Positions 618-13,536 of a stretch of 64,000 nt of DNA are shown here, in pieces. The stretch lies in the IMG/VR virus record IMGVR_UViG_3300036770_001537. The stretch is one strand, 5' to 3'. The position numbers and the translations under genes were made by a program. Position 1 is the first letter of the stretch. Each line of letters opens with the position of its first letter. This stretch comes from a virus. The notes below the pieces were generated by a model. It saw only the letters and a list, made by a program, of their open reading frames with translations. It searched no databases and was not told the DNA's origin.

Positions 618-994
618 TTGTTAATCTCCATCCGAATAGGTGCTTTTGGTGCAATAATTGTTTTACCATCACGCTCAATAGCAACTACTTCTGCAATTGG
701 TAGATAACGATCATTTACCTTCACCCAGCATCCTGTTGAGATGGAATGTGAGTGTTCTACATTCAACAGTTTGGCTTTATTGGCACAAGGAACACCACGA
801 TATGAACGACGGTCCTTTACATCACCTTGATAGATTCGTTTACATACAGAAAAGAATGCTTTTAATTGATCGTCATATGAAAGATTGTTCCAGAATTGAT
901 CACAGTCTGCCTCATATTCTCGTTCAAGTTGTTCTTGCATTTCAGAATGTTTTGATAGTGTCTCAAAAAGGTTGTTTGTGTCAGTCATTTTCAA
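614..994 (-). CDS. hypothetical protein, possibly a fusion of two phage genes
   Basis: 126 aa ORF; composition changes abruptly after SYRGV. Confidence 0.6.
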   Translation of the reverse strand: MKMTDTNNLFETLSKHSEMQEQLEREYEADCDQFWNNLSYDDQLKAFFSVCKRIYQGDVKDRRSYRGVPCANKAKLLNVEHSHSISTGCWVKVNDRYLPIAEVVAIERDGKTIIAPKAPIRMEINK

Positions 995-1986
995 GCCCTC
1001 ACGAATTTTCCGTTTTCATCTAGTTTATATGGTACATTTGGTTCAATGCCGTCTCCACCAACATAGGCAATTGATATTCGATATCTTTTGCCATCATGCC
1101 ATTTGATTGATAGTGTTGAATCATTGCCACCAGTTACAGTTGAATGATAACCACCAGTTACAATTGAATCAACACCACCAGTTACAGTTGAATGATAACC
1201 ACCAGTTACTGTTGAACTATAACCACCAGTTACAATTGAATCAACACCACCAGTTACTGTTGAATAATTACCACCAGTTACAGTTGAATGATAACCACCA
1301 GTTACAATTGAATCATTACCACCAGTTACAGTTGAACCATTACCACCAGTTACAGTTGAACCATGTTCACCAGTTACAGTTGAATCATTACCACCAGTTA
1401 CAGTTGAACCATTACCACCAGTTACAGTTGAATGATAACCACCAGTTACAATTGAATCAACACCACCAGTTACTGTTGAATAATTACCACCAGTTACAGT
1501 TGAATGATAACCACCAGTTACTGTTGAATAATTACCACCAGTTATAGTTGAATAATCACCACCAGTTACAGTTGAATAATCACCACCAGTTACAGTTGAA
1601 CCATAACCACCAGTTACAGTTGAATTATTGCCGCCAATAATAAAAGCACCAACAACTTTGGCTGGATTACATCCAGAAGCAATTAAGAAATCAGTAGCAC
1701 CTTTTCGATCACCAACAAATAATGTTTTGGCTTTTGAGGTTTTAATTTTTTTATTGATATCAACGATTGGACCTAATGCGTCACAAACCATCCATATAGC
1801 ACTTGAAGACCAATCAAGATACTCGCCATCGCCTTTACCATGAAGAAGGCCATGAAGTCCATTACCGCAATTTGGTTCTGGATTCCAATCAGGGGCTTCT
1901 GTAATTCCACCAATTTCTAGATTCCATTGGAATCCACCATAAGATGTGCCATCAGCATTACAAGTTCTCAAGAATAGATTATTCAT
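991..1986 (-). CDS. ice-nucleation-protein-like octapeptide-repeat protein (paralogue 1)
   Basis: Likely start MNNLFLRTC at 1986 (matches paralogue 2); 22 GGxxSTVT-type repeats; InaZ-like N- and C-terminal domains. Confidence 0.85.
   Translation of the reverse strand: MNNLFLRTCNADGTSYGGFQWNLEIGGITEAPDWNPEPNCGNGLHGLLHGKGDGEYLDWSSSAIWMVCDALGPIVDINKKIKTSKAKTLFVGDRKGATDFLIASGCNPAKVVGAFIIGGNNSTVTGGYGSTVTGGDYSTVTGGDYSTITGGNYSTVTGGYHSTVTGGNYSTVTGGVDSIVTGGYHSTVTGGNGSTVTGGNDSTVTGEHGSTVTGGNGSTVTGGNDSIVTGGYHSTVTGGNYSTVTGGVDSIVTGGYSSTVTGGYHSTVTGGVDSIVTGGYHSTVTGGNDSTLSIKWHDGKRYRISIAYVGGDGIEPNVPYKLDENGKFVRA
1107..1636 (-). repeat. 24-nt tandem repeat array (GGxxSTVT codons)
   Basis: accaccagttacagttgaa core recurring every 24 nt. 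Confidence 0.95.
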
Positions 1987-2254
1987 TTTGAAAATACCTT
2001 TCATATAGCCATCGAATGCCATGTAGATCAGGATGTTTGTGAATCCACATTCCTGTGTCTGGCTCAAACTGCTTCTTGAAGAACATATCAAGATTCTTGT
2101 GTCCTGTCAAGACAGATTTATCGATCTTCCGTGAGAGTGCATCATATTCAGCATCTGGTATGATTGAATGATCATGAAATTCATATGCGTATGCGAAAAT
2201 AGAGAGTCTGATTCGATTCCGCCTCTCTTGCTCAACCTTTGGATTTGATTTCAT
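1979..2254 (-). CDS. small protein resembling the N-terminal (Ia) domain of NAD+-dependent DNA ligase
   Basis: AYAYEFHDHSIIPDAEYDAL resembles the YYxxDxPxISDAEYDxL motif. Confidence 0.65.
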   Translation of the reverse strand: MKSNPKVEQERRNRIRLSIFAYAYEFHDHSIIPDAEYDALSRKIDKSVLTGHKNLDMFFKKQFEPDTGMWIHKHPDLHGIRWLYERYFQNE

Positions 2255-2594
2255 CGATGATTTCCTCCAGATTCTTTTTGAGATGGTGCAGATAATTCAT
2301 TCGATTTAGATTAGTTTCTTCCTCATATAATGCACCAATTTCTTCCAAAACTTGTTCGAGGATAAATACTTTGTCGATACTCTCTGTCTTTTTTGCACCT
2401 TTCTTCCATGCATACTGAATAGCTACCCAGTCATCAATGCAGTTTTGCTCGGTGATTGAGTAGTGACCTTCTCCATATTTCTTGATCATTTTAATATACC
2501 AGATACCCCAATAATAGTCAAGGATTTTTTTTCCTGTAATTTCCTCTATTTTGCCTAGGCTATCGTAACAATAAACTTGATCTTCATAGTTCAT
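2232..2594 (-). CDS. hypothetical protein
   Basis: 120 aa ORF in operon. Confidence 0.65.
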   Translation of the reverse strand: MNYEDQVYCYDSLGKIEEITGKKILDYYWGIWYIKMIKKYGEGHYSITEQNCIDDWVAIQYAWKKGAKKTESIDKVFILEQVLEEIGALYEEETNLNRMNYLHHLKKNLEEIIDEIKSKG

Positions 2595-2815
2595 TGCTTA
2601 TTCCTTTTGATTTCTTCATTGATAATCATCAACTCATCAGCAAGACCTTCATAAAACTTATGTCTCAAAAACTCATCAGGATTTTTCTTTTCTTGATATT
2701 CAAGACGTGCTTTACCGGAAGCACGTCGAACAGCAAGTTCTACATATTCAAGTTCAGTCATTCTCATCATCCTTCTTGTAAGGATCAAAGGCCCAATCAC
2801 CAGAGAAATACTCAT
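2591..2815 (-). CDS. hypothetical protein (true start probably MTELE, ~2761)
   Basis: ORF packing. Confidence 0.55.
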   Translation of the reverse strand: MSISLVIGPLILTRRMMRMTELEYVELAVRRASGKARLEYQEKKNPDEFLRHKFYEGLADELMIINEEIKRNKQ

Positions 2816-3011
2816 ATACGTGAGTCATACATTCTACATCTTTACGCCAGTTTTGTAAATCCTCTTTTTGAAAAGCCGCTAGATTATCTTTGGACTCATA
2901 GTCTTCAATGTCTCTCACAGTTGCTTCAATAATTTCTTTAAGACGGTGACTAATAATATTATCAAAGAAATCGGAGTGAAAAAAATCATTTAGTAGTTTA
3001 TTAGCGTCCAT
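2754..3011 (-). CDS. hypothetical protein
   Basis: 85 aa acidic ORF with GGAG RBS. Confidence 0.65.
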   Translation of the reverse strand: MDANKLLNDFFHSDFFDNIISHRLKEIIEATVRDIEDYESKDNLAAFQKEDLQNWRKDVECMTHVYEYFSGDWAFDPYKKDDEND

Positions 3012-3062
3012 TATAAAATCTCCCGATGGATTTCTCTTGAAGTGTCAATGCTGTTACAGTGA

Positions 3063-3431
3063 TCAGTCATTTTCTTTCCACTCTACCCATTTGCCATCAT
3101 CTTTGACTTCAATTCGAATGTTGTGTGGCTGCATCATTCGATCCACTTCTTCTTCGACTTCTTGAAGTTTACCAGTCTTTCTAGCAGCTTCAATTCTCAA
3201 CCACTTTTGCATTTCTGGTGAGTTGGCCATTCGAGTAAAGGCTGTTCTTTCATTGGCCAATTTCTCTCTGTGGTCTTGACAGTTTCCACGAGCACCAGAA
3301 GGAGGATGATGAACCCGAACACAGTTGCGATGTTTGTTTCTATGTTGTCCGCCAGCACCAGACCCAGAATAATAATCCCATTCAAAATCTTTTCGGGTCA
3401 ATGAAAAAATTATTTTATTATCATCAGTCAT
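3063..3431 (-). CDS. RF-1 domain (GGQ) peptidyl-tRNA hydrolase / release-factor-like protein
   Basis: SGSGAGGQHRNKHRNCVRVHHPPSG...CQDHREKLAN matches the class I RF domain 3 / ArfB signature. Confidence 0.85.
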   Translation of the reverse strand: MTDDNKIIFSLTRKDFEWDYYSGSGAGGQHRNKHRNCVRVHHPPSGARGNCQDHREKLANERTAFTRMANSPEMQKWLRIEAARKTGKLQEVEEEVDRMMQPHNIRIEVKDDGKWVEWKEND

Positions 3432-3434
3432 CGT

Positions 3435-3638
3435 TTATTTTCTTTCTCTTTTTTTCCTACAATTTATAAAATATAAAGCAGAACCATATGCAACAATGCC
3501 TGACATTACAGATATATTAATTGCAATGAACTTGGTCGGGGAAATATAAACACCAGCATACCAAACATTGATAGTATGAATTGTTAATGCACAAAAAAAG
3601 CAAATAAGTAATGAGATATAATCATCACGATTTAACAT
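3435..3638 (-). CDS. small membrane protein
   Basis: two hydrophobic segments and a basic tail. Confidence 0.6.
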   Translation of the reverse strand: MLNRDDYISLLICFFCALTIHTINVWYAGVYISPTKFIAINISVMSGIVAYGSALYFINCRKKRERK

Positions 3639-3639
3639 T

Positions 3640-3867
3640 TCATTGTTCCTCTTGATATAAAAGTCCGTGTTTCTTCATTAGCAATTTTGTATAAATGTCA
3701 AGACCAAAGAAAATTGTAAACAAACCCATCATTATAACAATATGAACAATTTCAATTTGTGGCAATTTATACAAATGATAAGCATTTGTAACATGACAGA
3801 GAAAAATACAAATATGATATAGAGTATAATACTTGAATGCTTCTAGTTTATACTCAGAATCAGTCAT
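3640..3867 (-). CDS. small membrane protein
   Basis: two hydrophobic segments. Confidence 0.6.
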   Translation of the reverse strand: MTDSEYKLEAFKYYTLYHICIFLCHVTNAYHLYKLPQIEIVHIVIMMGLFTIFFGLDIYTKLLMKKHGLLYQEEQ

Positions 3868-4123
3868 GTTTTACCTTATTCATCTTAGCTGCCTTGACCT
3901 TATTCATATCGAAAAACTGAAACCTTAGATGCTGTACTTCGCAGACAAACTTTCCATTACGATCATAGCAAGAAGGGCCATGTGAAACATCCAGGAAAGC
4001 AAAGCACTCTCCATTATGCCACAACTTCTTATATCCTGCAACATCTGTTTCAGTTATAGTTATGGCTCCTGTATCAACGTCGATAAAGTTGCCATCATCA
4101 TCAAATTCAATCGTGATCTTCAT
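3860..4123 (-). CDS. hypothetical protein
   Basis: 87 aa ORF with AAGGA RBS. Confidence 0.65.
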   Translation of the reverse strand: MKITIEFDDDGNFIDVDTGAITITETDVAGYKKLWHNGECFAFLDVSHGPSCYDRNGKFVCEVQHLRFQFFDMNKVKAAKMNKVKHD

Positions 4124-4134
4124 TTGTCAGTCCT

Positions 4135-4617
4135 TCAATGTCGAACAACAGATACGAGATCAAAGCCTTCTGCCTCAGTTGGCATTTGAAATGATTGTTT
4201 CATGGTTTCGAGAACATTGGTAGGAATTGTCTTTCCGGGTCTATCCAATCGTGTTTCCCAATCATCAGGAATATTAAACACAACTGCATGTTTGATATAA
4301 TGTTTCGGAATCGTTGCCAGTTTATTGGCACGAGACTTGACAGTAAGATTGGTTTGATCCCAAATAATCCTATCGTTTCGTTCAACAGCCAACCTTGCGA
4401 TATTAAACATCATCTTTTCTGAGAAAGAATATGTGTTATTACTGAACAATTCATTATATGTGAAATGATATTTTTTGCCAATCATTTCCATGATATCGTC
4501 GGAAGAAATCACGGTAAATTCTTGATCAATATTTAATTGATTACAAAAAGTAGATTTGCCTGTTCCGGGCAAACCTACCATCATATAAAACTCATTCCTT
4601 GTTTGTTGAACCGACAT
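4135..4617 (-). CDS. P-loop polynucleotide-kinase-like protein (AAA_33)
   Basis: MVGLPGTGKST Walker A, ISSDD, WDQTNLTVKSR; adjacent to RNA ligase. Confidence 0.85.
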   Translation of the reverse strand: MSVQQTRNEFYMMVGLPGTGKSTFCNQLNIDQEFTVISSDDIMEMIGKKYHFTYNELFSNNTYSFSEKMMFNIARLAVERNDRIIWDQTNLTVKSRANKLATIPKHYIKHAVVFNIPDDWETRLDRPGKTIPTNVLETMKQSFQMPTEAEGFDLVSVVRH

Positions 4618-5725
4618 TCCAAGTTGCTCCTATGTACGACCTGATTGAGTCTACTGTAGCCTGAGTCGATGTCTTTGTCAATATCTTTTTGATCCACTCG
4701 TCACGTAGTTTGGTTGTATCATCAAGGCACTTGAAAATAATCGAACGAGCAAACTCTGGAATAGATTCATTGACAATCGAAGCAATAGACTTTCGATCAT
4801 TGTCCAACCACTCCAAATAATCGATAAACTGCTTGCATTCTTTTACATGAGTATCAATAGAAGAAACCAAACACGTTTGATATTTCAATAGACGATCACG
4901 ATCCTTTTCTGGCAGATTTGGCAGAATGTCATCCAATTGTTCATTCAGAATCAACTTGATTACATTCTTTTCAAATAGAAGATTTTCCTTTGCTTTATGA
5001 ATGGCAATATACCAATCAGTCTTGATCTTGAGCATATGTCCATTTTCAAACAAAACAACCACGCCTTCAATATCAGTCTGTTCTTTTAGTTTAAATAATG
5101 TACCAGAATACTTTTGAACAACTGGAACATTCCAGAACTTGGCAGCCTCCACCAACTTGTCATAGGAAACATATTCGCCAGTCTTATTATGCCGAATGGC
5201 CAAAAGGATCAAGTTTTCTTCTTGGTATTCAATCACGATACGATTGGATGGTGCAATGTATTCAAAGATAGGAGTTAGATTAACTTCGTTCATTGAATAA
5301 GCAAACGAGCAATAATTCTGCTTATCTTTGACGAATTTCTCGCACTGCAAACCAACATCAGTGATTCCCATCTTGGTTCCCCAACGTATTTTTCCACTAA
5401 CAACGATTGGAGAAATCATTGAACCGTCCATCTTATGTAAAACCACATGAGGAATCCCCCAATCAATATTAAGATTGTTGGTTTCTTCACGTTCGTTTAG
5501 ATTAAAGAACTTATGAAAACGCCGTGAGAGCACTTCGCCAGTCTGGGCACAAAACACCAAACCACGAAGTTCTCGTCTCATATGACAATCAAAGGAATCT
5601 TCCTTGGATAGATTATAGTTGAAAATAATATGATCACCCCGATGTGCTTCCACAAATTCGGGACGATCCTTAATTGCTTCTCGTGCTTGTTCGATGTTCG
5701 TGATTATCGGAAATTGATAGTTCAT
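4592..5725 (-). CDS. rnlA: RNA ligase 1 (T4 RnlA-like)
   Basis: ELRGL, FHKFFNLNE, KMDGS (motif I), FEY, EGVV, KIKTDWY. Confidence 0.9.
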   Translation of the reverse strand: MNYQFPIITNIEQAREAIKDRPEFVEAHRGDHIIFNYNLSKEDSFDCHMRRELRGLVFCAQTGEVLSRRFHKFFNLNEREETNNLNIDWGIPHVVLHKMDGSMISPIVVSGKIRWGTKMGITDVGLQCEKFVKDKQNYCSFAYSMNEVNLTPIFEYIAPSNRIVIEYQEENLILLAIRHNKTGEYVSYDKLVEAAKFWNVPVVQKYSGTLFKLKEQTDIEGVVVLFENGHMLKIKTDWYIAIHKAKENLLFEKNVIKLILNEQLDDILPNLPEKDRDRLLKYQTCLVSSIDTHVKECKQFIDYLEWLDNDRKSIASIVNESIPEFARSIIFKCLDDTTKLRDEWIKKILTKTSTQATVDSIRSYIGATWNVGSTNKE

Positions 5726-5958
5726 TTTAGCCCCAATAAGATTTTGTCGCCTTCGGTTAGTTTATCCAGTGCTTCTTTTTTACGATGTTCTATTTCCTTT
5801 GATTGAAGTTCTTCCTCACTGTTTACATAATCAAAAGTCATAGATTTTACAGAATCAAACGGACGACTATGTTTCCAATAGAGTGCAAATTCCTGATCTT
5901 TGGTATGGTATACTCGACCTGAACCACAAAGTTCAATTTTGTAAATAACTTCGATCAT
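5722..5958 (-). CDS. hypothetical protein
   Basis: 78 aa ORF ending in a common phage C-terminal motif (ALDKLT...LLGL). Confidence 0.65.
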   Translation of the reverse strand: MIEVIYKIELCGSGRVYHTKDQEFALYWKHSRPFDSVKSMTFDYVNSEEELQSKEIEHRKKEALDKLTEGDKILLGLK

Positions 5959-6473
5959 TTTACCCTCGCAATGATATCTTCAATATGAACAGGTGTGTAG
6001 TTAGTATGCTCAACACACACATTTACCCACCTTGGATCACCAATCGTTTTATCATGAATATGTCCATGAAGATTGATTCCATTGTCACCTACTCTATACT
6101 GAAACGAGGAAAGATGCAAGGGAAAATGACACATCACGACTGGAACACGAAGTTTCTTCATCTCATGAAAAGACATTACCTTTTCAAAATTCTCAACATA
6201 ATCCTTGGCGTCATAGTCATGATTGCCAAGTATCAGCCTTTTCTTTCCATTAAGACGAGAAGCAAACTTGGCAATGTTCTGTTTTCCGCCAAAAGTGAAA
6301 TCTCCAAGATGGTAAATAATATCGTTTGGCTTAACTGTTTTATTCCAGTTGTCGATAATCCTTTCGTTCATTTCATCCAGATCATTAAATCCTGGACGAA
6401 TTTTGTTGCCGTTTTTATCGGTAAACACAAGAATATTCTTGTGAGAGAAATGCGTATCCGATATCACAAACAT
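5955..6473 (-). CDS. calcineurin-like metallophosphoesterase
   Basis: SDTHFSH, HLGD, LGNHD, HFP, HGHIH. Confidence 0.9.
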   Translation of the reverse strand: MFVISDTHFSHKNILVFTDKNGNKIRPGFNDLDEMNERIIDNWNKTVKPNDIIYHLGDFTFGGKQNIAKFASRLNGKKRLILGNHDYDAKDYVENFEKVMSFHEMKKLRVPVVMCHFPLHLSSFQYRVGDNGINLHGHIHDKTIGDPRWVNVCVEHTNYTPVHIEDIIARVK

Positions 6474-6826
6474 TAATCTGCTACCTTCCAAGAAACGTCA
6501 TAATAACATTCAATTCTCTCCCAGCCATCATGTTCTTCAATTCGATATAGAGTTCCTTTTGGAATATCCTCAACTTCTAATTTAGCACAGCTTCCGGATG
6601 ATTTTTTTGACCCCAAATATTCCACGACCTGAACTAGAATAGGATCATCTCTTTCGATATCTTTAATATACCCATAATCAAAAGGTACAATTTCTCCGTC
6701 TTTATAAGAATCCCCTTTGATACATGGGCCTCCCCAATTAGGATTATTTGAAAACGCTCGGCCTAAAAGAACGGCTTCACGAGACAGAGAAAAGCCACCA
6801 TAGCACTTGTTTAGTACGATTTTCAT
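6473..6826 (-). CDS. conserved phage hypothetical protein
   Basis: KIVLNKCYGGFSLS...RDDPILVQVVE...IEEHDGWE, a familiar phage family. Confidence 0.75.
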   Translation of the reverse strand: MKIVLNKCYGGFSLSREAVLLGRAFSNNPNWGGPCIKGDSYKDGEIVPFDYGYIKDIERDDPILVQVVEYLGSKKSSGSCAKLEVEDIPKGTLYRIEEHDGWERIECYYDVSWKVAD

Positions 6827-6829
6827 TTG

Positions 6830-7060
6830 TCAGTCCTCATAATTAGGAGTTGGGTAGAACGTCACTTCTTTCATCCTTACTTCTACCATAACCATACCAC
6901 ACTCGTCAATACATTTTCGGTGTTCCCATGCAGATTTTTCTGTTGGATATATTTCAACAACTGCTTTTCCAAGTTCAACATCAAAGTCGGTCATACACAT
7001 ATAACCAGTAAATGTTTTATACTTATCCATTATCCACAACTCCATGTATAACATATTCAA
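6830..7060 (-). CDS. hypothetical protein
   Basis: ORF in operon. Confidence 0.6.
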   Translation of the reverse strand: MNMLYMELWIMDKYKTFTGYMCMTDFDVELGKAVVEIYPTEKSAWEHRKCIDECGMVMVEVRMKEVTFYPTPNYED

Positions 7061-7319
7061 TATTTTCAGTTGTAGTATGAGTCACATTTTTATATTTTGT
7101 TATGACGACTTTAAGATCGAATATATTATGATTCTTTTTAAAATACTGTATCCATTTTTCAAGAGGGACTTCTATAGGAATCATCTTTCTCTGGAATTGT
7201 TCATCGACATGATGTTCATCATAAAATACTCTCAGTAATCCATAAGGTTTTTCAGAGTCTGTTCGTCCATACAATTCACATTTTCTATATTCATGTTCGT
7301 AACTAGATGAGCTATTCAT
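7023..7319 (-). CDS. hypothetical protein
   Basis: 98 aa ORF. Confidence 0.6.
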   Translation of the reverse strand: MNSSSSYEHEYRKCELYGRTDSEKPYGLLRVFYDEHHVDEQFQRKMIPIEVPLEKWIQYFKKNHNIFDLKVVITKYKNVTHTTTENIEYVIHGVVDNG

Positions 7320-7361
7320 AAAAATAATCCTTCAATAATAACAAAAATAATAGAATCATAA

Positions 7362-7398
7362 AAAAGAAAAAGACATAACCTTGTGGAGTTATGTCTTT
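7362..7398 (-). terminator. intrinsic terminator
   Basis: AAAGACATAAC..GTTATGTCTT hairpin followed by a U-tract on the minus strand. Confidence 0.6.
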
Positions 7399-7417
7399 CA
7401 GTTCTTTCAACATGCCT

Positions 7418-7912
7418 TTAATCGTGTTCAAATGAATTTACCTCGAATCCATCTTTAGTTGCAACAACATATGAATGGTCATCAAACATATGCAAATATA
7501 TTTCATCGTCAATTGAACAAAGAAACTTTTCGAAAGTTTTCATTGCTTCAAAATGTTCTGGAGTTACACCTTCTTTATATTGTGATTCATAATAGGATTG
7601 TTCTCCAGCAGCATATTCTTCGGCATATGAACCACCTTCGTCCATGAAGTCTTCGAGACCCTTTTGCGTCAAGAAATACTTTTCGCCAACTCCAAATTCA
7701 CAGGCTTCTCCATCATTAAAATAAGGAGTATATTGTTGCCATGTTACTGCTTTAATCGAAGGCACTTGTTCAAAAAATTGTTTAAACGCTTCGATAAAAA
7801 GTTTCTTTGATTTCTCTTGATACTCTTTCTTCAGTGTTTCGAATTGCTCGTTCATTTCTTGTTGGTGCTTTTGAATTTCCTTAAGATCAAACATTTTCTG
7901 TCTCCATTGCAA
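7418..7912 (-). CDS. conserved phage hypothetical protein
   Basis: WQQYTPYFNDGEAC motif, C-terminal EHD. Confidence 0.75.
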   Translation of the reverse strand: MQWRQKMFDLKEIQKHQQEMNEQFETLKKEYQEKSKKLFIEAFKQFFEQVPSIKAVTWQQYTPYFNDGEACEFGVGEKYFLTQKGLEDFMDEGGSYAEEYAAGEQSYYESQYKEGVTPEHFEAMKTFEKFLCSIDDEIYLHMFDDHSYVVATKDGFEVNSFEHD

Positions 7913-8261
7913 TGAATTTACGCTTCTCTCGTTCAGTCTTGTTTGCTGGACCGCCCATCCAACCTTGAATCTTCATGTTTCCAAGCCAATGCTCCACTGT
8001 AGGAATGAATCCCAAGTCTTCCATACAATGATCTTCGGCAATATCTCTGGTAGAATAATCCTTTCCATCAGAATTTGTACGAACATTTCCAAACATTTGT
8101 TGAACAATATAACAGCCAAAGGTTGAATGGAGAATTGCTCGATGTCTTACGTCACCAAGAGTTGCTTTGGACGAATCCATGAACTCATGGATATCCAAAT
8201 AGTCTTGATATTTTCCTCCGTACTTTCGTGCAGAGGACTTAGCATGAATAAAAGGTTTCAT
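7887..8261 (-). CDS. conserved hypothetical protein (DUF6915-like)
   Basis: HAKSSARKYGG..IHEFMDSSK..RHRAILH..AEDHCMEDLG. Confidence 0.75.
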   Translation of the reverse strand: MKPFIHAKSSARKYGGKYQDYLDIHEFMDSSKATLGDVRHRAILHSTFGCYIVQQMFGNVRTNSDGKDYSTRDIAEDHCMEDLGFIPTVEHWLGNMKIQGWMGGPANKTEREKRKFIAMETENV

Positions 8262-8404
8262 TCAACAATCTCCGAATAGACGATCTGAACCACTTTAGCA
8301 TACCGGAAGTTTCTTGGTTCTTGAAACAAGATGATTGCTCTTGTTATATCATAACCAAGCAGATAGTTGTCATCGTGTTCATAGCATAGCCAAGCAAGTT
8401 TCAT
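8258..8404 (-). CDS. small hypothetical protein (48 aa, not in ORF track)
   Basis: MKLAWLCYEHDDNYLLGYDITRAIILFQEPRNFRYAKVVQIVYSEIVE fills the gap with overlapping stop/start. Confidence 0.55.
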   Translation of the reverse strand: MKLAWLCYEHDDNYLLGYDITRAIILFQEPRNFRYAKVVQIVYSEIVE

Positions 8405-8407
8405 TTG

Positions 8408-8764
8408 TCAAGCCTTCACGAACTTTGCTTCACGATCAAGTTTATACATCACATTAGGTTCAATACCGTCTTCACCAACATATGCGATAGCAATTCGATC
8501 TCTTTTACCATCAAAATAATCGATAGTCAAAACAGAATCAATTCCACCAGATACCATCGAACCATAACCACCAGATACGAACGAACGATCACCACCAACA
8601 AGAACTGATCCACGACCACCAGTTATGTTCGATAGATATCCGCTTTCGATAATTGAATTATTTCCACCAACAATAGTCGTATGTGAATCGCCTTCATAGG
8701 TTTGACCTTCACCAAAAGCAACAAATTCACCATCTCGAATGTTGATCATAAATTCCATAGCCAT
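8408..8764 (-). CDS. short ice-nucleation-protein-like paralogue 3 (lacks the N-domain)
   Basis: about 6 degenerate GGxxSxxx repeats plus C-domain DGKRDRIAIAYVGEDGIEPNVMYKLD; start 8764 or 8758 after own promoter and RBS. Confidence 0.8.
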   Translation of the reverse strand: MAMEFMINIRDGEFVAFGEGQTYEGDSHTTIVGGNNSIIESGYLSNITGGRGSVLVGGDRSFVSGGYGSMVSGGIDSVLTIDYFDGKRDRIAIAYVGEDGIEPNVMYKLDREAKFVKA

Positions 8765-8785
8765 GCCCTTTCCCGATTCTGTAGT

Positions 8786-8814
8786 ATTATAGCACATGAT
8801 ATTGGGGATGTCAA
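8786..8814 (-). promoter_or_regulatory. sigma70-type early promoter
   Basis: TTGACA-17-TATAAT followed by ACTACAGAAT, shared with the next two promoters. Confidence 0.8.
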
Positions 8815-9716
8815 GCCCCAATATCAAAACTTTTTGTGCCACCAAAATGTCGAGCACATGCCTCAAACGAATAACCACGCTGATTACTGAGAATACGGCA
8901 CTCTCCGATTGGATAATCTACCGTATGATGCGTGTGTCCATGAATCCAGAACTTGATATTAGGAGAATCCAGAATCACAGAAGACAAGTCTGAAGCATAT
9001 GCTCCATTCAAATCATCAGTGCCATAAATTCCTCCAGAAACATGAACTGGATCGATAGACTTGAAACTTGGTGCATGATGAGTGAGAACAACTACTGGAA
9101 GATCAGTATCGTTTGCCTTCTCGTAGATATAAGAAACAGACTCCAGATGAACATCCAATATAAACTGAGGATTGATCTTTCGGTTATGCCTACGATTGAA
9201 ATAGTTCATGTCCGCAACAGTATGAAGACCAATCATGTTATAATCATTCATTCCACGCTCAACAATCTCCATTGTTAGTGGATTACCCTTCTTATAATCA
9301 GTCCATAGAGTTGCACCAATAAACCGAACACCATCAAAATCTAGATAATCATTCTCCATTACCATGATATTATTGAACTTGTTGTTAGTCAAGAATGTCT
9401 TGATATCAGGAATAGTATTCTTGTAAATGGAAGAGTAATGCTCATGGTTGCCCATTACATACAGAACCTGTCGATACTTGGAAATAAACTCCTTGAATGG
9501 ACCGTTCAACCACTTCTTAATCTTCTTTGAATCTGCATCAGTACGATGTGGAGCAACCATATTGGCAGTAAAGATATCACCTGCCAAAATAAGAACATCT
9601 CCACCCTGATCATCATGAAGATTAGGATAGTTCAAAAACTCTGCGTGAAGCTAAAGGTCGGAGACATAGCTAACTTTTAGCTTCTTATCTCCGACCAACC
9701 TCCTTCCTTTATCCAT
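8811..9716 (-). CDS. metallophosphoesterase with an in-frame TAG inside motif I (candidate stop-hop, or pseudogene)
   Basis: MDKGRRLVGDKKLKVSYVSDL-TAG-LHAEFLNYP..., then LAGDI, GNHEHY, THHAPS, HGHTH. Confidence 0.8.
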
Positions 9717-9748
9717 AATGTTTCCTTTCATTACTATGTCCTTTCTTG

Positions 9749-9787
9749 ATTCTGTAGTATTGTACCACAAAATCTAATTGGTGTCAA
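9749..9787 (-). promoter_or_regulatory. early promoter, 39-nt direct repeat copy 1
   Basis: TTGACA-17-TACAAT; identical to 10115-10153. Confidence 0.85.
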
Positions 9788-10134
9788 GGCCAAACTTGAT
9801 GTGCCCATATTATTTTTGAATTGGTCTTTTCATATTCTTCTACTAATTGTTCTAATGTGTAGACAGTTTCAGTTTTGAAATTCCATAACCATTGAGAAAA
9901 CCCTAAGAAACTTAGACCATCCATAATAGGCAGTAATATTTCCATTCCATATGGTTCATTTGTACCATAAACATCTATTCTACCACCACCCCATGATTCA
10001 GTTATGACATTTCGTCCATTTTCATTTTTGACTAGACCTCTTTTTTCAAACCATTCAAAATTTATTGGTCCCATAAAATTAGCATGATATGTTATCATCA
10101 CACACCCTTTCTCTATTCTGTAGTATTGTACCAC
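9784..10134 (-). CDS. hypothetical protein (true start probably MITYHANF)
   Basis: ORF between the two identical promoters. Confidence 0.65.
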   Translation of the reverse strand: MVQYYRIEKGCVMITYHANFMGPINFEWFEKRGLVKNENGRNVITESWGGGRIDVYGTNEPYGMEILLPIMDGLSFLGFSQWLWNFKTETVYTLEQLVEEYEKTNSKIIWAHQVWP

Positions 10135-10153
10135 AAAATCTAATTGGTGTCAA
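10115..10153 (-). promoter_or_regulatory. early promoter, 39-nt direct repeat copy 2
   Basis: identical to 9749-9787. Confidence 0.85.
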
Positions 10154-10362
10154 TTACTTTTTTCAAATTCTTCCAAAGTTCCTTTATGAAAATGTGTAAC
10201 CCTGTTTCCACAATTTTCACAATACCAAGGAACACCCAATTCTTGCAATTCTTTTGGATTTAACAGAGAAGATTTCCAATTGCATTTTTTACATTCTAAC
10301 ATTATATAATATATTTTATTTTCTTTCATAAGAAATATCTTTAGAATGCATAAACCTATCAA
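10150..10362 (-). CDS. small zinc-ribbon protein
   Basis: CKKC ... CENC. Confidence 0.6.
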   Translation of the reverse strand: MIGLCILKIFLMKENKIYYIMLECKKCNWKSSLLNPKELQELGVPWYCENCGNRVTHFHKGTLEEFEKSN

Positions 10363-10819
10363 AAATAGTAATTACATGCTTATCAGTTATTCCAGTTTTC
10401 AAATCAACATTCACCAAATGTGGTCCACATCTTAATGGAATATCATCAACGACAATCCATTTACAAACCACATTCTGTGGAACATTGTTCATCAACCAAT
10501 CTCTAATTGCATATAATCTATCATCAATAACAGATGGAAACTTTGTTTTATAATTTGGATGAATTAACTCTGGATTTAGACCGTTTTTAATAGCACAATT
10601 TTTAACATCAATTACCCCTTGATTGTCATTGTGGGCAGTATTAAACACAATTTGAATTTTTTGTGGCGGACAATGCTCGTTCAACTCTTTGATAAACTGT
10701 TTGTCATACACATAAGTCCTATCATCATATCTATCATAACCATATGTGTTCTCTGCTGATCTAACATGAAGTCGTAGAGGAATCAAAGGACCATCAACAT
10801 CAAGAAATAGAATTTTCAT
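10316..10819 (-). CDS. HAD-superfamily protein (RNA-repair-associated HAD type)
   Basis: ILFLDVDGPL, WIVVDD, GIT. Confidence 0.75.
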   Translation of the reverse strand: MKILFLDVDGPLIPLRLHVRSAENTYGYDRYDDRTYVYDKQFIKELNEHCPPQKIQIVFNTAHNDNQGVIDVKNCAIKNGLNPELIHPNYKTKFPSVIDDRLYAIRDWLMNNVPQNVVCKWIVVDDIPLRCGPHLVNVDLKTGITDKHVITIFDRFMHSKDISYERK

Positions 10820-11274
10820 TTTAAATATCTACCTTTTTCTGCAACAGGTGCCATGTTTTTATAACGAACGTCTTCATCAAACTTGACAATATCGATAGTT
10901 TTATCATCTAATGAATATGCAAACCTTCCACCAAAATATACACAAAAAGTTAATGTTACGTTTGAATAGACGATAATTGTATATGCGGATGTAAGTGCCT
11001 GTCCTCCCATTCCTCCAAATCCTAGAGCAGTTGATCCCCATGTTTGAAGGAACATTGTACATACATGTAGTTCATCTGCAAAATGATCTCGTTCATATGT
11101 TTCATATGCAGACTTTTGCCATTTCTTATATTCTGCAATGTTTGCCCTATGACCTTTATATGGTTCGGAGCCAACTTTTCTGCGAGAATCTTTAACCTTT
11201 GGCATATCCCTATATTGTGCGGATGCCAATGCTGAAGTTAGACAGACGATTGGATTATCATTCATTCGAAACAC
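10816..11274 (-). CDS. conserved phage hypothetical protein
   Basis: FLQTWGSTALGFGGMGGQALTSAYT..VYFGGRFAY. Confidence 0.75.
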   Translation of the reverse strand: MFRMNDNPIVCLTSALASAQYRDMPKVKDSRRKVGSEPYKGHRANIAEYKKWQKSAYETYERDHFADELHVCTMFLQTWGSTALGFGGMGGQALTSAYTIIVYSNVTLTFCVYFGGRFAYSLDDKTIDIVKFDEDVRYKNMAPVAEKGRYLK

Positions 11275-11549
11275 TTCCTTTCACGAAACACCACTTTACC
11301 CTGCATTACTCCAAGTGGAGATGATTGTTGATATACAATTTCTTCAAAGGTTTCATTTGGCTTTGCTGATCGATGAGCAAACCAGATAGAATTATCCTGA
11401 TCTTTCCAAGAAGAATGAACGAACTTTCTTCCACATGGAATTTCAATATATGCAGTGCCAAGACCAGTTCTTGCCAACCAGTTTTCACAACCAGCAAGAA
11501 ACATAGCAGATACAGCAGTGATAATAACAAGAGTCTTTTTCATTTTCAA
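11262..11549 (-). CDS. putative lipoprotein
   Basis: signal peptide ending in lipobox LAGC. Confidence 0.7.
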   Translation of the reverse strand: MKMKKTLVIITAVSAMFLAGCENWLARTGLGTAYIEIPCGRKFVHSSWKDQDNSIWFAHRSAKPNETFEEIVYQQSSPLGVMQGKVVFRERKCFE

Positions 11550-12421
11550 GCCCTCACGAACTTTCTATTTGCATCTAGTTTATATGGTACATTAGGTTCA
11601 ATACCATCTTCGCCAACATAAGCAACGGTAATTCTTGGTCTAAAACTATCGTACCATTTGATAGAAAGTGCTGAACCATGTTCACCAGTTATAATTGAAT
11701 CAACACCACCAATTACAGTTGAATCAACACCACCAGTTACAGTTGAACCAGCACCACCAGTTACAGTTGAATAATCACCGCCAGTCACAGTTGAATCAAC
11801 ACCACCAGTTACAGTTGAACCAGCACCACCAGTTACAGTTGAATAATCACCGCCAGTCACAGTTGAATCAACACCACCAATTACAGTTGAATCAACACCA
11901 CCAGTTACAGTTGAATAATCACCGCCAGTCACAGTTGAATCAACACCACCAGTTACAGTTGAACCAGCACCACCAGTTACAGTTGAACGAACACCACCAG
12001 TTACAGTTGAATAATCACCGCCAGTTACAGTTGACCAATTACCACCAGTCACAATTGAATAATCACCACCAATAATAAAAGCACCAACTACTTCGACAGG
12101 ATTGCAGCCAGAGGCAATTAAGAAATCAGTTGCACCTTTTCTATTACCAATAAACAAGGTTTTAGCCTTTGAAGTTTTAATTTTTTCATCAATATCTACG
12201 ATTGGACCTAGTGCGTCACACACCATCCATAAAGCATCATCATTCCAATTTAAATAACCACCATAACCTTTGCCATGAAGAAGGCCATGAAGGCCACCTC
12301 CACATTCTGGTTCTGGATTCCAGTCTGGAGATTCTGTGATTCCACCAATTTCTAGATTCCATTGAAATCTATTATGAGATGTACCATCAGCATTACAAGT
12401 TCTCAAGAATAGATTTTTCAT
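11546..12421 (-). CDS. ice-nucleation-protein-like octapeptide-repeat protein (paralogue 2)
   Basis: N- and C-domains nearly identical to 991-1986; 17 GGxxSTVT-type repeats. Confidence 0.85.
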   Translation of the reverse strand: MKNLFLRTCNADGTSHNRFQWNLEIGGITESPDWNPEPECGGGLHGLLHGKGYGGYLNWNDDALWMVCDALGPIVDIDEKIKTSKAKTLFIGNRKGATDFLIASGCNPVEVVGAFIIGGDYSIVTGGNWSTVTGGDYSTVTGGVRSTVTGGAGSTVTGGVDSTVTGGDYSTVTGGVDSTVIGGVDSTVTGGDYSTVTGGAGSTVTGGVDSTVTGGDYSTVTGGAGSTVTGGVDSTVIGGVDSIITGEHGSALSIKWYDSFRPRITVAYVGEDGIEPNVPYKLDANRKFVRA

Positions 12422-12422
12422 C

Positions 12423-13478
12423 TCACTCTTCCTTGATCAAGAATTGGTTGTTGATCACCTTGAACGACACTTCTGGATGTTCAAGAGAACGATACACAAT
12501 ACCTTCGGCAATTGGATTGTTCAACGACTTAATTTCAGACAACTTTAAAAGTTCATCAAAAGAATAATTTTTAAGATAATGATCATAACCAACAAAAGGA
12601 ACCACGCTGATATCAATACCATCCATAAAGTCTTCCAAATCCATTAGAGTATTATGTTTCTCATCAGGACCAATATAACACTGTTTGTCAATGTCCCAGA
12701 TATCAAACACATAGAAATCATGATAATGTAATTTTTCACGATTGCCTTGAATGCCCGGACCCATTAACTCACCTTGAATAGCAATGTTTTTGCCATACTT
12801 CCTCATTACTTCTTCAAATTTATAATTCCGTGCAACTTTCCAATAAGTATTATCATCAGTTTCCTTTAGTTCAAGGTTTCTGGAACATACACCAAACTCA
12901 CCATTGTTATAATACACGGTCATCGATGAACCATCAAGTTTCAGTGTTGCCTCAAACAAATCGTCCTTATATTTCTTGACCAGATCATTATAGCAATTTT
13001 GAATCCGTTCTTGATCGGTTTTACGAATGAATGAAGGGAAATTGCCTTTTACTGTTCCAGCAAGTTGTGCAGGTATAGGAACTTCCCACTTTTGAACGCC
13101 GAGAATTTCTGTTACATCTTCACCTTCAATTGGCGAAACATATGAACTGCAATTATTAGTCATAAAGTCTCTTCCAAAAACAACTGTTAAAGGCAAACAA
13201 AGTCCTTGAGAAATCTGACCACGAAGTTTCACGGTCTTCAAACGGAATCCATCACCAAGGTTCTTGGTTGACCGAAAGCACGACTTCCGAAGAAATTCAA
13301 ATTCAGGACGAACTGGTAAAAAACTATCAATTTCAAAAAATACGCATAGGTCATCAACCTGAAATTCACCTTTTTTGGATACACACCACCAACCATCAAC
13401 ACGAATGGCTTCAATGGCATCTGCACCATCAATTGGCTTGATCTCTGCAACACGACGAATAGAAGCAAGTTTTCGCAT
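12423..13478 (-). CDS. RNA ligase 2 family (DRB0094-like)
   Basis: RKLASIRR, FPSFIRKTDQERIQN, KLDGSSMT, QGELMGPGIQGN, FDI, EGIV, SFKVINN. Confidence 0.9.
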   Translation of the reverse strand: MRKLASIRRVAEIKPIDGADAIEAIRVDGWWCVSKKGEFQVDDLCVFFEIDSFLPVRPEFEFLRKSCFRSTKNLGDGFRLKTVKLRGQISQGLCLPLTVVFGRDFMTNNCSSYVSPIEGEDVTEILGVQKWEVPIPAQLAGTVKGNFPSFIRKTDQERIQNCYNDLVKKYKDDLFEATLKLDGSSMTVYYNNGEFGVCSRNLELKETDDNTYWKVARNYKFEEVMRKYGKNIAIQGELMGPGIQGNREKLHYHDFYVFDIWDIDKQCYIGPDEKHNTLMDLEDFMDGIDISVVPFVGYDHYLKNYSFDELLKLSEIKSLNNPIAEGIVYRSLEHPEVSFKVINNQFLIKEE

Positions 13479-13494
13479 ATCGTTCTCCAATATC

Positions 13495-13536
13495 AAAAGA
13501 CCAGATGATCCTACACCATCTGGTCTCGGTTGTCAA
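13495..13536 (-). promoter_or_regulatory. overlapping intrinsic terminator and early promoter
   Basis: TTGACA-17-TAGGAT embedded in hairpin AGACCAGATG/CATCTGGTCT + TTT. Confidence 0.65.

What the first reader, a model, noticed from the sequence alone, without database searches (positions are those of the whole stretch)
991..12421. Phage family of miniature ice-nucleation-protein homologues (three paralogues)
Seen: 991-1986 and 11546-12421 share an N-domain (LFLRTC..FQW..PDW..GLHGLLHGKG..WMVCD..G(D/N)RKGA). It is followed by 22 or 17 octapeptides GGxxSTVT and a C-domain (W.D..R.RI..AYVG.DGIEPNVPYKLD). 8408-8764 keeps only about 6 repeats plus the C-domain. Knowledge (recalled, not searched): Pseudomonas InaZ has the same three-part layout, with LVLRTC..GLVGLLWG..WIVCE..VGDR, AGYGSTxT octamers and WDGKRYR..GENGVE..PY. 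Inference: these are true INP relatives, not generic Gly/Thr repeats. With about 8-11 sixteen-residue coils they are far shorter than potent nucleators, so they may be ice-binding/antifreeze proteins, may nucleate only as multimers, or may keep an ancestral non-ice function. They sit among early genes and have no signal peptide.
Basis: partly seen in the sequence, partly recalled or inferred. Interest (0 to 1): 0.75.

Follow-up and report, generated by a model that had tools for sequence, protein, structure and literature searches.

The report
Phage mini ice-nucleation-protein homologues
An uncultured T4-like phage carries three early genes for small proteins that are true relatives of bacterial ice-nucleation proteins. 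They belong to a very large, unstudied, mostly phage-borne family, of which the famous ice nucleators look like one narrow, overgrown branch.

Summary
Three minus-strand ORFs (991-1986, 11546-12421, 8408-8764) encode 331-, 291- and 118-residue proteins. They carry 22, 17 and about 7 octapeptide repeats and share a C-terminal domain. The two long ones also share an N-terminal domain.

The homology claim is supported. A profile of the phage family's N domain hits the N terminus of every tool-fetched Pseudomonas, Xanthomonas and Pantoea INP (E 2e-27 to 8e-24). It hits nothing else among 11,405 decoy ORFs. A C-domain profile hits the extreme C termini of INPs (E 1e-14 to 2e-8).

They are not INPs in the strict sense. 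The repeats fall below Pfam's Ice_nucleation cutoff. There are only 8.5-11 coils, no arginine-rich coils and no linker.

They belong to Pfam DUF7666 and phrog_18079, the family of Bordetella phage Bbp36 (non-essential, variable repeat number). The family has at least 1,654 clusters at 50% identity, nearly all of short proteins.

INP N domains form one tight clade and have lost four polar residues that are over 95% conserved in the mini-family.

The genes sit in early/replication modules in unrelated phages. Ice activity is unlikely to be their biological role. An early, possibly membrane-associated, host-interaction role is my best guess and is unproven. A link of the N domain to the rIIB C terminus and the ADP-ribosyltransferase fold is only a lead.

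The parts
991..1986 (-). P0001, a 331-aa mini-INP paralogue. N domain is residues 1-112 (1651-1986). The 22 octads are residues 116-291 (1114-1641). The C cap is residues 292-331 (994-1113). The stop codon is 991-993.
   Evidence: ORF and translation. PF24703 DUF7666 at 31.1 bits, above the cutoff of 27, and phrog_18079 at E 3.9e-50. Octad register. 24-bp tandem array at 1115-1636.
11546..12421 (-). P0002, a 291-aa mini-INP paralogue. N domain is residues 1-112 (12086-12421). The 17 octads are residues 116-251 (11669-12076). The C cap is residues 252-291 (11549-11668). Its start codon abuts the stop of the upstream RNA ligase gene (12423-13496).
   Evidence: AlphaFold2 model with pLDDT 97.0 and pTM 0.89.
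8408..8764 (-). P0003, a 118-aa headless paralogue. It has a short unique N terminus, about 7 degenerate octads (residues 24-79, 8528-8695) without T-x-T, and a C cap (residues 80-118, 8411-8527).
   Evidence: phrog_18079 at E 1.7e-11, matching only profile positions 140-251. The C part matches NCBIfam YdhT at E 3.1e-8.
8786..8814 (-). Perfect sigma-70 consensus promoter (TTGACA, 17 nt, TG-n-TATAAT) about 20 nt upstream of the P0003 ribosome-binding site. It is of the type T4 uses for early genes.
   Evidence: This is a consensus match only; no transcript data exist.
2082..2110 (-). Promoter-like site (TTGACA, 17 nt, TATGTT, with TG) about 96 nt upstream of the P0001 start, inside the preceding small ORF.
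   Evidence: It matches 10 of 12 consensus positions, so it is weak evidence.

Best explanation
Shown: the three genes are paralogues of a large, mainly phage-borne protein family (Pfam DUF7666, phrog_18079, Bordetella phage Bbp36). This family shares common ancestry with bacterial ice nucleation proteins at both ends: the roughly 110-residue N-terminal domain and the roughly 40-residue C-terminal cap.

Predicted: each long protein is a globular head joined directly to a narrow two-sheet beta-solenoid. One coil takes 16 residues, that is two GGxxSTVT octads. Outward-facing Thr-x-Thr ladders line both flat faces, and an INP-type cap closes the rod. The rod length changes quickly through gain and loss of 24-bp units. 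Two rods may pair in parallel through one Thr face.

Inferred: the proteins are made early from host-type promoters. They stay in the cell or at its membrane rather than in the virion. They act as dispensable host-interaction or anti-defence factors. In this reading the head carries the activity or anchoring site, built from the conserved residues Arg7, Cys9, Asp33, Cys40, His45, Lys80 and Lys82. The variable rod sets reach or binds a target.

Classical INPs look like one narrow branch of this family. In that branch the head lost Asp33, Cys40, His45 and Lys80, while the rod expanded and gained arginine-rich coils. Ice nucleation is therefore not the function I expect here.

My odds: homology to INPs 0.95; an early, non-virion, non-ice role 0.6; a specifically membrane-associated rII-like or anti-defence role 0.3.
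For: Homology to INPs:
- BLASTP of the phage N domain against the Xanthomonas nasturtii INP N domain gives 33% identity over 105 aa, E 1e-13. The C domains give 42% over 48 aa, E 6e-12.
- HMMs built from 62 family members hit all INP N termini at E 2e-27 to 8e-24 across profile positions 3-110. They hit INP C termini at E 1e-14 to 2e-8. Among 11,405 six-frame ORFs, the N profile otherwise hit only the phage homologues Mica and BPP-1, plus one weak partial match at E 0.077 to a 5'-truncated INP ORF. The C profile otherwise hit only those two and E. coli YdhT.
- 21 columns are invariant across 2 phage and 13 INP N domains.
- Two of the three cap residues that are essential in PbINP (D1208 and Y1230, PMC10727499) are identical at the same spacing in all three phage proteins. 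The third is conservative (F to I).

Structure:
- AlphaFold2 gives pLDDT 97 with strands every 8 residues.
- The homodimer prediction scores 0.48 against a best control of 0.00. That mark was reached by 20 of 30 solved homodimers and 1 of 23 monomers. The runs agree in at least 97% of contacts and partner pLDDT is 90. Contacts recur every 16 residues on one T-x-T face.

Family size and shape:
- 1,654 clusters at 50% identity score E <= 1e-3, and the top 150 are all 85-526 aa long.
- 200 of 268 sampled members have head, repeats (6-207 aa) and cap.
- INP heads are monophyletic (support 0.96) and less diverse than the mini-family (0.78 against 1.74).
- Asp33, Cys40, His45 and Lys80 are 95-97% conserved in the mini-family and replaced in INPs.

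Setting:
- There is a perfect sigma-70 promoter before P0003.
- The gene lies among replication and recombination genes in the window, in Mica, in BPP-1 and in 80 IMG/VR loci.
- bbp36 is non-essential and carries 9-20 repeat copies between isolates (PMC2884959).
- The N domain was found in only 3 of 401 sampled Pseudomonadota genomes.

Head fold lead:
- About 40 of the top 50 PDB matches are ADP-ribosyltransferase-fold proteins.
- BFVD lists many T4-like rIIB proteins at TM 0.57-0.68.
- T4 rIIB carries TCSRGLHVC, against the family's CGNGLHG. hhalign gives E 1e-4.
Against: No function has been measured for any family member, so the functional part is inference from context.

Pfam DUF7666 itself does not hit INPs at E <= 0.1. 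The link therefore rests on my own profiles and on pairwise BLAST.

The tree is unrooted, so 'INPs are derived' depends on residue polarity and on the weak rIIB outgroup.

T-x-T ladders on both faces are exactly what hyperactive antifreeze proteins use, so ice binding in vitro cannot be excluded. A six-repeat INP fragment was reported to bind ice (PMC9418140).

Promoter calls are consensus matches only.
Confidence: 0.5

Rival explanations
1. Ice-active proteins. The short T-x-T solenoids would bind ice as antifreeze or recrystallisation inhibitors, or nucleate ice weakly after multimerising. This would help the phage or its host in cold water.
Against: The same family occurs in phages of Bordetella (a pathogen of warm-blooded hosts) and Burkholderia. 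There are 8.5-11 coils, below the 13-15 needed for any INP activity (PMC9418140). There are no R-coils, with K+R of 0-1 in the repeat regions, and R-coils are required for INP multimers (PMC10727499). P0003 lacks T-x-T. The predicted dimer buries one Thr face. The genes are early and have no export signal, so the proteins would be cytoplasmic. The head's conserved polar residues have no role in ice binding.
Confidence: 0.12
2. Cell-surface display. Like INPs, which reach the outer membrane through their N domain without a signal peptide, the phage proteins would be exported and decorate the infected cell. They could then block superinfection or change adhesion.
For: The N domain is homologous to the INP domain that is credited with outer-membrane anchoring (PMC10727499 citing Li 2012). 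A small lipoprotein gene follows P0002 with overlapping stop and start codons, and the same pair occurs in a related contig. The closest fold matches of the rod include adhesin heads.
Against: How INPs are exported is unknown. INPs have lost the residues that are most conserved in the mini-family head. No partner gene is conserved across 80 loci. The lipoprotein neighbour is seen only in the closest relative.
Confidence: 0.15
3. DNA mimic or anti-restriction decoy. The acidic rigid rod would imitate DNA, as pentapeptide-repeat proteins and Ocr do, and block a host nuclease or another DNA-binding defence protein early in infection.
Against: Acidity is not a family trait: many members carry GTATAG(D/Y)R octads with balanced charge. 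This idea leaves the conserved head and cap unexplained. Thr ladders, not charge ladders, are the conserved feature of the rod.
Confidence: 0.08
4. Virion fibre or baseplate component. The octad repeats resemble the T4 gp5 needle, so the proteins would be structural.
For: There are weak hits to phrog_430 (baseplate hub, E 3e-8) and to PF22178 Gp5_trimer_C (E 0.027).
Against: Those hits cover only the repeats and are below the family cutoffs. INPs give the same weak gp5 hits. The gene sits in replication modules in every phage examined. bbp36 is non-essential. The model is a confident single-chain solenoid, not an intertwined trimer.
Confidence: 0.04

Closest known systems
Bacterial ice nucleation proteins (InaZ, InaA, InaX, PbINP; Pfam PF00818 repeats)
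   Same: The N-terminal domain of about 110 residues is homologous, with 21 invariant columns. The C-terminal cap is homologous and keeps the essential Asp and Tyr. The middle is a solenoid of 16 residues per coil with T-x-T ladders. There is no signal peptide.
   Different: The phage proteins have 8.5-11 coils against 50-80. The repeat unit is a single 8-residue octad (24-bp and 72-bp DNA periods) in which both half-coils are alike. INPs instead have a 16-residue unit with distinct TQT and SLT halves (their 48-bp and 144-bp DNA periods are recalled from the INP literature, not measured here). The phage proteins have no arginine-rich R-coils and no linker of about 50 residues. The head keeps Asp33, Cys40, His45 and Lys80, which INPs have lost. 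They are phage early genes, not chromosomal genes of plant epiphytes.
Bordetella phage BPP-1/BMP-1/BIP-1 Bbp36 with variable region 2, and phrog_18079 / Pfam DUF7666
   Same: Same three-part architecture and same family: phrog_18079 at E 4e-50, and my N and C profiles hit Bbp36 at E 1e-36 and 3e-23. The tandem unit is 24 bp. The gene sits in the early region.
   Different: Identity is about 32-36%. The window phage is a T4-like myovirus with three paralogues, one of them headless, whereas BPP-1 is a small podovirus with one copy. No function is known for either.
Burkholderia phage Mica gp52, annotated 'ice nucleation protein' (PMC7883832)
   Same: Same family (N profile E 4e-40, C profile E 1e-22), and it lies among replication genes.
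   Different: Its annotation rests on one BLAST hit to InaA, and its proposed virulence role is untested. It is shorter (219 aa) and comes from a temperate phage.
E. coli YdhT (NCBIfam NF007410)
   Same: It has degenerate 8-residue solenoid repeats followed by the same C cap (C profile E 6e-12; BLASTP to P0003 E 1e-8).
   Different: Its N-terminal part is unrelated. It is the last gene of the ydhYVWXUT oxidoreductase operon. Scores of 19-33 bits are far below the family cutoff of 300, so the phage proteins are not YdhT.
C-terminal domain of T4 rIIB (anti-RexAB protein; Pfam PF26926 in the precomputed tables)
   Same: Both are early, dispensable phage proteins. The predicted fold is similar (Foldseek TM 0.57-0.68 to many rIIB models). 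They share a C-x-x-G-L-H motif followed by a strand (hhalign E 1e-4).
   Different: The sequence signal is confined to a short motif and is not above block-shuffle controls. rIIB has an N-terminal helix-turn-helix and no solenoid. This is a lead, not an established relationship.
T-x-T beta-solenoid antifreeze proteins (for example insect AFPs, MpAFP, ryegrass IBP 3ult)
   Same: They have flat beta-sheets with regular outward Thr ladders on a narrow solenoid of similar length.
   Different: No sequence relationship was shown. Those proteins are secreted or extracellular, come from cold-adapted organisms, and have no such head or cap.

Membership tests
Bacterial ice nucleation protein (INP sensu stricto) | N-terminal domain of about 100 residues of the INP type | tested here: met
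   The family N profile hits all INP N termini at E 2e-27 to 8e-24. BLASTP gives E 1e-13. 21 columns are invariant.
Bacterial ice nucleation protein (INP sensu stricto) | C-terminal capping domain with the essential Phe/Asp/Tyr positions | tested here: met
   The C profile hits INP C termini at E 1e-14 to 2e-8. BLASTP gives E 6e-12. Asp and Tyr are identical at the INP spacing (+4, +22) and Phe is replaced by Ile (residues from PMC10727499).
Bacterial ice nucleation protein (INP sensu stricto) | Central 16-residue AGYGSTxTAxxxSxL[TI] repeats recognised by Pfam PF00818 above its gathering score | tested here: not met
   P0001 scores 23.7 bits against a cutoff of 27. P0002 and P0003 have no hit. 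Real INPs score 683-1390 bits.
Bacterial ice nucleation protein (INP sensu stricto) | Long array (tens of coils; at least 13-15 needed for any activity) | tested here: not met
   22, 17 and about 7 octads give 11, 8.5 and about 3.5 coils. The threshold is from PMC9418140.
Bacterial ice nucleation protein (INP sensu stricto) | 10-12 arginine-rich R-coils before the cap, needed for multimerisation | tested here: not met
   The repeat regions contain 0, 1 and 2 Lys+Arg and have pI 4.0-4.4. The requirement is from PMC10727499.
Bacterial ice nucleation protein (INP sensu stricto) | Ice nucleation activity | not testable with these tools
   Needs droplet-freezing assays.
Pfam PF24703 DUF7666 | Score above the gathering cutoff (27 bits) | tested here: met
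   P0001 scores 31.1 bits and P0002 29.5 bits. P0003 has no N domain. The atlas neighbours are DUF7666 clusters.
PHROG phrog_18079 (the Bbp36 family) | Full-length profile match | tested here: met
   E 3.9e-50, 8e-47 and 1.7e-11; the last matches the C half only. tblastn finds Bbp36 over 99% of the query.
YdhT (NCBIfam NF007410) | Equivalog score of at least 300 bits | tested here: not met
   Scores are 19-33 bits and cover only the last repeats and the cap.
rIIB C-terminal domain | Significant profile-profile match beyond a short motif | tested here: inconclusive
   hhalign gives probability 51-57%, E 1e-4 and score 30.1. Column shuffles reach at most 20.9, but block shuffles reach 29.9. Foldseek against BFVD lists many rIIB models.
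ADP-ribosyltransferase fold | Structural match of the head to solved ART domains, with the catalytic H-Y-E or R-S-E triad | tested here: inconclusive

The most novel reading that the evidence does not exclude
Bacterial ice nucleation proteins arose from a phage-borne family of small head-rod-cap proteins. The head is an rIIB-C / ADP-ribosyltransferase-like domain with a Cys/His/Asp/Lys site that acts in early infection, possibly against host defences at the membrane. The Thr-x-Thr 'water-organising' face began as a protein-protein (dimer) interface. It was later co-opted for ice when the rod expanded and the head degenerated into a mere anchor.
Probability: 0.3. Interest if true: 0.8.

Novelty: new member of a known kind. 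Interest (0 to 1): 0.6.

Why it matters
INPs are the most potent biological ice nucleators. Their origin and the role of their N domain are open questions. Published surveys that I could read count only long INPs from Pseudomonas, Pantoea, Xanthomonas and some fungi.

This work shows that the INP head and cap belong to a family of at least 1,600 sequence clusters of small, mostly phage-encoded proteins. It gives the field an outgroup and a set of natural minimal constructs: cap plus 3-25 coils, with or without a head. It also yields a testable claim that the INP head is a degenerate form of a domain with a conserved polar site.

For phage biology, the work flags a widespread, repeat-length-variable early gene family with a possible link to the long-mysterious rIIB protein. 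That link is weak and needs structures.

Tried and rejected
- Megablast of 11.6 kb against 50,697 phage records found no match. The phage itself is new, with a DNA polymerase at most 49% identical to those of Synechococcus phages.
- No whole genome is held for the window.
- The search for homologous proteins with the whole protein and 'longer' lengths returned only unrelated repeat proteins (YadA-like, tail fibres). It found no INP and was therefore uninformative.
- Sequence search of the PDB returned only repeat-driven hits: UspA1 at E 4e-6 and gp5.
- Foldseek against the PDB found nothing at E <= 0.001 for either the whole model or the head.
- Pfam DUF7666 does not detect INP N domains at E <= 0.1.
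- The local Pfam copy found only helix-turn-helix hits in T4 rIIB. tblastn found no rIIB in this window.
- Literature searches for 'DUF7666' gave 0 papers, and searches for INP-like terms gave nothing relevant.
- No RNA holder was listed among the sequencing runs.
- Laid contigs break at the repeats, so repeat-number variation in the population could not be read. Joints that skip P0003 (8412 to 8817 in three runs of one study) and P0002 (11535 to 12414 in one run) have short sides of 22-30 letters. They are only hints that these genes are dispensable.
- No gene neighbour is conserved across 80 viral loci.
- The gp5-needle and generic low-complexity readings were rejected, because the non-repeat domains carry the signal.

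Full report
**What is there**

The window is part of an uncultured T4-like myovirus. It has a split family-B DNA polymerase at most 49% identical to those of Synechococcus phages. It also carries a DnaB-like helicase, CobS/CobT-like genes, two RNA ligases and tail-fibre genes. The contig is about 164 kb. No whole genome is held and there is no close relative among 50,697 phage records. Its DNA is found in subsurface, aquatic, lagoon and marine metagenomes.

On the minus strand, among many small genes, lie three ORFs:
- P0001 at 991-1986, 331 aa.
- P0002 at 11546-12421, 291 aa.
- P0003 at 8408-8764, 118 aa.

P0001 has exactly 22 and P0002 exactly 17 octads of the form [VI][TI]GGxxS[TI]. P0003 has about 7 degenerate octads that have lost the Thr-x-Thr pattern. 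At DNA level the arrays are 24-bp tandem repeats (21.8 and 16.2 copies). P0002 also has a 72-bp higher-order unit.

**Are they INP relatives?**

I fetched real INP genes with a degenerate DNA pattern for GYGSTQTA. One example is the 1,480-aa Xanthomonas nasturtii protein, which scores 1,390 bits on PF00818.

Pairwise BLASTP gives these results:
- Phage N domain against INP N domain: 33% identity over 105 residues, E 1e-13.
- C domains: 42% over 48 residues, E 6e-12.

For a fairer test I built HMMs of the N domain (columns 1-112) and the C domain (columns 244-291) from 62 metagenomic family members. I searched them against all 11,405 six-frame ORFs of the 123 loci held at that point.
- The N profile hit the N terminus of every INP present at E 2e-27 to 8e-24, over profile positions 3-110. 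It also hit the phage homologues from Mica and BPP-1. Its only other hit was a weak partial match (E 0.077) to an INP ORF cut off at the locus end.
- The C profile hit the extreme C terminus of INPs at E 1e-14 to 2e-8, the two phage homologues and E. coli YdhT.

An alignment of 2 phage and 13 INP N domains has 21 invariant columns.

The cap residues shown by mutation to be essential in PbINP are F1204, D1208 and Y1230 (PMC10727499). In the fetched INPs they correspond to F, D(+4) and Y(+22). All three phage proteins have I, D and Y at the same spacing.

**Why they are not INPs in the strict sense**

- PF00818 scores 23.7 bits in P0001, below the cutoff of 27, and nothing in the other two.
- There are 11, 8.5 and about 3.5 coils. 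At least 13-15 repeats are needed for any INP activity (PMC9418140).
- The repeat regions contain 0-2 Lys+Arg and have pI 4.0-4.4. They therefore lack the arginine-rich coils that INPs need to multimerise (PMC10727499).
- The head abuts the rod without the INP linker of about 50 residues.
- The unit of expansion is one octad, with both half-coils alike. In INPs the unit is 16 residues with distinct halves.

**Which family they belong to**

The N domain is Pfam DUF7666 (31.1 and 29.5 bits against a cutoff of 27). The whole proteins match phrog_18079, of unknown function, at E 4e-50.

Annotated relatives include:
- Bbp36 of Bordetella phages BPP-1, BMP-1 and BIP-1. Its 'variable region 2' is the same 24-bp array, present in 9-20 copies between isolates. 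The gene is non-essential (PMC2884959).
- gp52 of Burkholderia phage Mica, already labelled 'ice nucleation protein' on the strength of one BLAST hit (PMC7883832).

Small Caulobacter proteins also carry that label (PMC3667746, PMC10688885). No searchable paper mentions DUF7666.

**Size and shape of the family**

A profile of the N domain found 1,654 cluster representatives (50% identity) at E <= 1e-3 among 1.84 billion proteins, and 1,064 at E <= 1e-10. The best 150 are all 85-526 residues long.

Of 268 members examined, 200 have a head, a repeat region of 6-207 residues (median 75) and a cap. Most of the rest are fragments. A few pair the head with other repeats, such as LRR-like ones.

IMG/VR yielded 123 loci from a single peptide pattern. 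In contrast, only 3 of 401 sampled Pseudomonadota genomes have the domain, and two of those are INP-type, one being the Xanthomonas INP genome used as the search centre.

In a maximum-likelihood tree of the heads, the 19 INP-type sequences form one clade (support 0.96). Their mean internal distance is 0.78, against 1.74 within the mini-family.

Column statistics show a shared core: Leu6, Arg7, Thr8, Cys9, Trp21, Trp34, Gly43, Leu44, Gly46, Gly50, Gly52, Trp65, Lys82 and Gly92. Four polar residues are 95-97% conserved in the mini-family: Asp33, Cys40, His45 and Lys80. INPs replace them with H/Y/F, L/H/Q/F, V/T/S/I and M/W/V. INPs thus look like a narrow branch with a degenerate head and an over-expanded rod. 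The tree is unrooted, so this polarity is an inference.

**Structure**

AlphaFold2 with the family alignment gives pLDDT 97.0 and pTM 0.89 for P0002. The model has a mixed head (residues 1-112) and short strands every 8 residues to the end.

A homodimer prediction passed its mark, with a score of 0.48 against a best control of 0.00. That mark was reached by 20 of 30 proteins solved as pairs and by 1 of 23 solved alone. The runs agree in at least 97% of contacts and partner pLDDT is 90. The contacts recur every 16 residues (123/125-127, 139/141-143 and so on) and are in register (141-141, 253-253). This independently indicates 16 residues per coil. It also suggests that one Thr-x-Thr face is a protein-protein interface. 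This supports pairing but does not show it.

**The head: two leads**

The head modelled alone has pLDDT 96.6. It has no Foldseek match in the PDB. However, about 40 of its 50 best alignment-based matches are ADP-ribosyltransferase-fold proteins: BC2332, Tpt1/KptA, Arr, Rhs ART toxins, PARPs, DarT, and the pertussis and diphtheria toxins. All have low Z, at most 5.2. No canonical catalytic triad is evident.

Against predicted viral structures the head matches DUF7666 proteins of phages and giant viruses, where it is joined to ankyrin, DUF4116 or pentapeptide repeats. It also matches many T4-like rIIB proteins at TM 0.57-0.68 and E 2e-3 to 2e-2.

T4 rIIB has TCSRGLHVC in its C-terminal domain, against the family's CGNGLHG. 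Profile-profile alignment gives probability 51-57% and E 1e-4. The score of 30.1 exceeds all 40 column shuffles (maximum 20.9). It does not exceed the shuffles that keep 8-column blocks intact (maximum 29.9). The sequence signal is therefore essentially one motif.

rIIB is an early, dispensable, membrane-associated anti-RexAB protein of unknown mechanism (10.1101/2023.05.28.542683). I treat the rIIB and ART link as a lead worth testing, not a result.

**Setting and expression**

P0003 is preceded by a perfect sigma-70 promoter (TTGACA, 17 nt, TG-n-TATAAT) at 8814-8786, followed by a ribosome-binding site. This resembles T4 early promoters, a point taken from established knowledge of T4. P0001 has a weaker site at 2110-2082. 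P0002 abuts the RNA ligase gene.

In Mica, in BPP-1 and in the 80 IMG/VR loci the gene lies among helicase, exonuclease, annealing-protein, dNMP-kinase and HNH genes. No single partner is conserved. Several contigs carry two paralogues and the window carries three.

**Interpretation**

The homology to INPs is secure. The role is not known.

The best-supported reading is an early, non-virion, dispensable host-interaction factor. The head carries the conserved site, and the rod is a rigid element of rapidly adjustable length that may pair through a Thr face.

An ice-related role is unlikely, given the hosts, the cytoplasmic and early setting, the short rods, the absence of R-coils and the T-x-T-less paralogue. 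Ice binding in vitro by P0001 or P0002 would not surprise me, however.

Rival readings (surface display, DNA mimicry, virion fibre) are listed with their tests.

**Novelty**

The genes are new members of a catalogued but unstudied family. The new points are:
- the tool-based proof of two-ended homology to INPs;
- the scale of the family relative to INPs;
- the lost head residues in INPs;
- the predicted Thr-face dimer;
- the tentative rIIB/ART connection.

Earlier notes of this scan on the same genome describe it as an uncultured marine T4-like phage, which agrees with what I found. One withheld report overlaps this stretch.

Noticed in passing
window 11262-11549 (-): A 95-aa lipoprotein-like gene (MKMKKTL...LAGC lipobox; phrog_12728, unknown function) starts at the stop codon of P0002. 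The same mini-INP plus lipoprotein pair occurs in the closest IMG/VR relative (L124:4001-4897 followed by 4897-5184).
   Followed up: partly
L123:8748-9560:- (E. coli K-12 ydhT): E. coli YdhT, the last gene of the ydhYVWXUT oxidoreductase operon, ends in degenerate 8-residue solenoid repeats and an INP-type C cap (C profile E 6e-12). The solenoid-plus-cap module therefore also exists with an unrelated N-terminal part in an enteric chromosome.
   Followed up: partly
protein P0211 (526 aa, metagenomic): This protein has three N-domain-like stretches, one with the INP-like motif GLTGLAWGSG. It is the sister of the INP clade in the head tree (parent support 0.90).
   Followed up: no
proteins P0273, P0238, P0263 and BFVD hits: The DUF7666 head is also found joined to LRR-like repeats, to a domain rich in Trp/Tyr/Cys, and, in giant viruses and phages, to ankyrin, DUF4116 or pentapeptide repeats. 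It behaves as a head that is combined with many kinds of repeat scaffold.
   Followed up: no
window 8412-8817 and 11535-12414: Metagenome contigs of related populations join across P0003 (three runs of one study) and across P0002 (one run). This hints that these paralogues are present in some strains and absent in others. The joint sides are short (22-30 letters).
   Followed up: partly
window 3063-3431 (-): A 122-aa ORF carries a GGQ motif (SGAGGQHRNKHRNCVRV), as in peptide-release-factor or ArfB-type peptidyl-tRNA hydrolase domains.
   Followed up: no
window 4135-4617, 4592-5725 and 12423-13496 (-): A P-loop kinase-like ORF (GLPGTGKST) lies with two RNA ligase genes (phrog_562 and phrog_968). 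This looks like a T4-style tRNA repair set next to the mini-INP genes.
   Followed up: no
Pseudomonas phage EL and relatives (hits H8-H12): Jumbo phages EL, vB_PQ1 and the GXNN phages encode hypothetical proteins that match only the last repeats and the C cap (residues 228-330 of P0001, 37% identity). They are headless like P0003.
   Followed up: no
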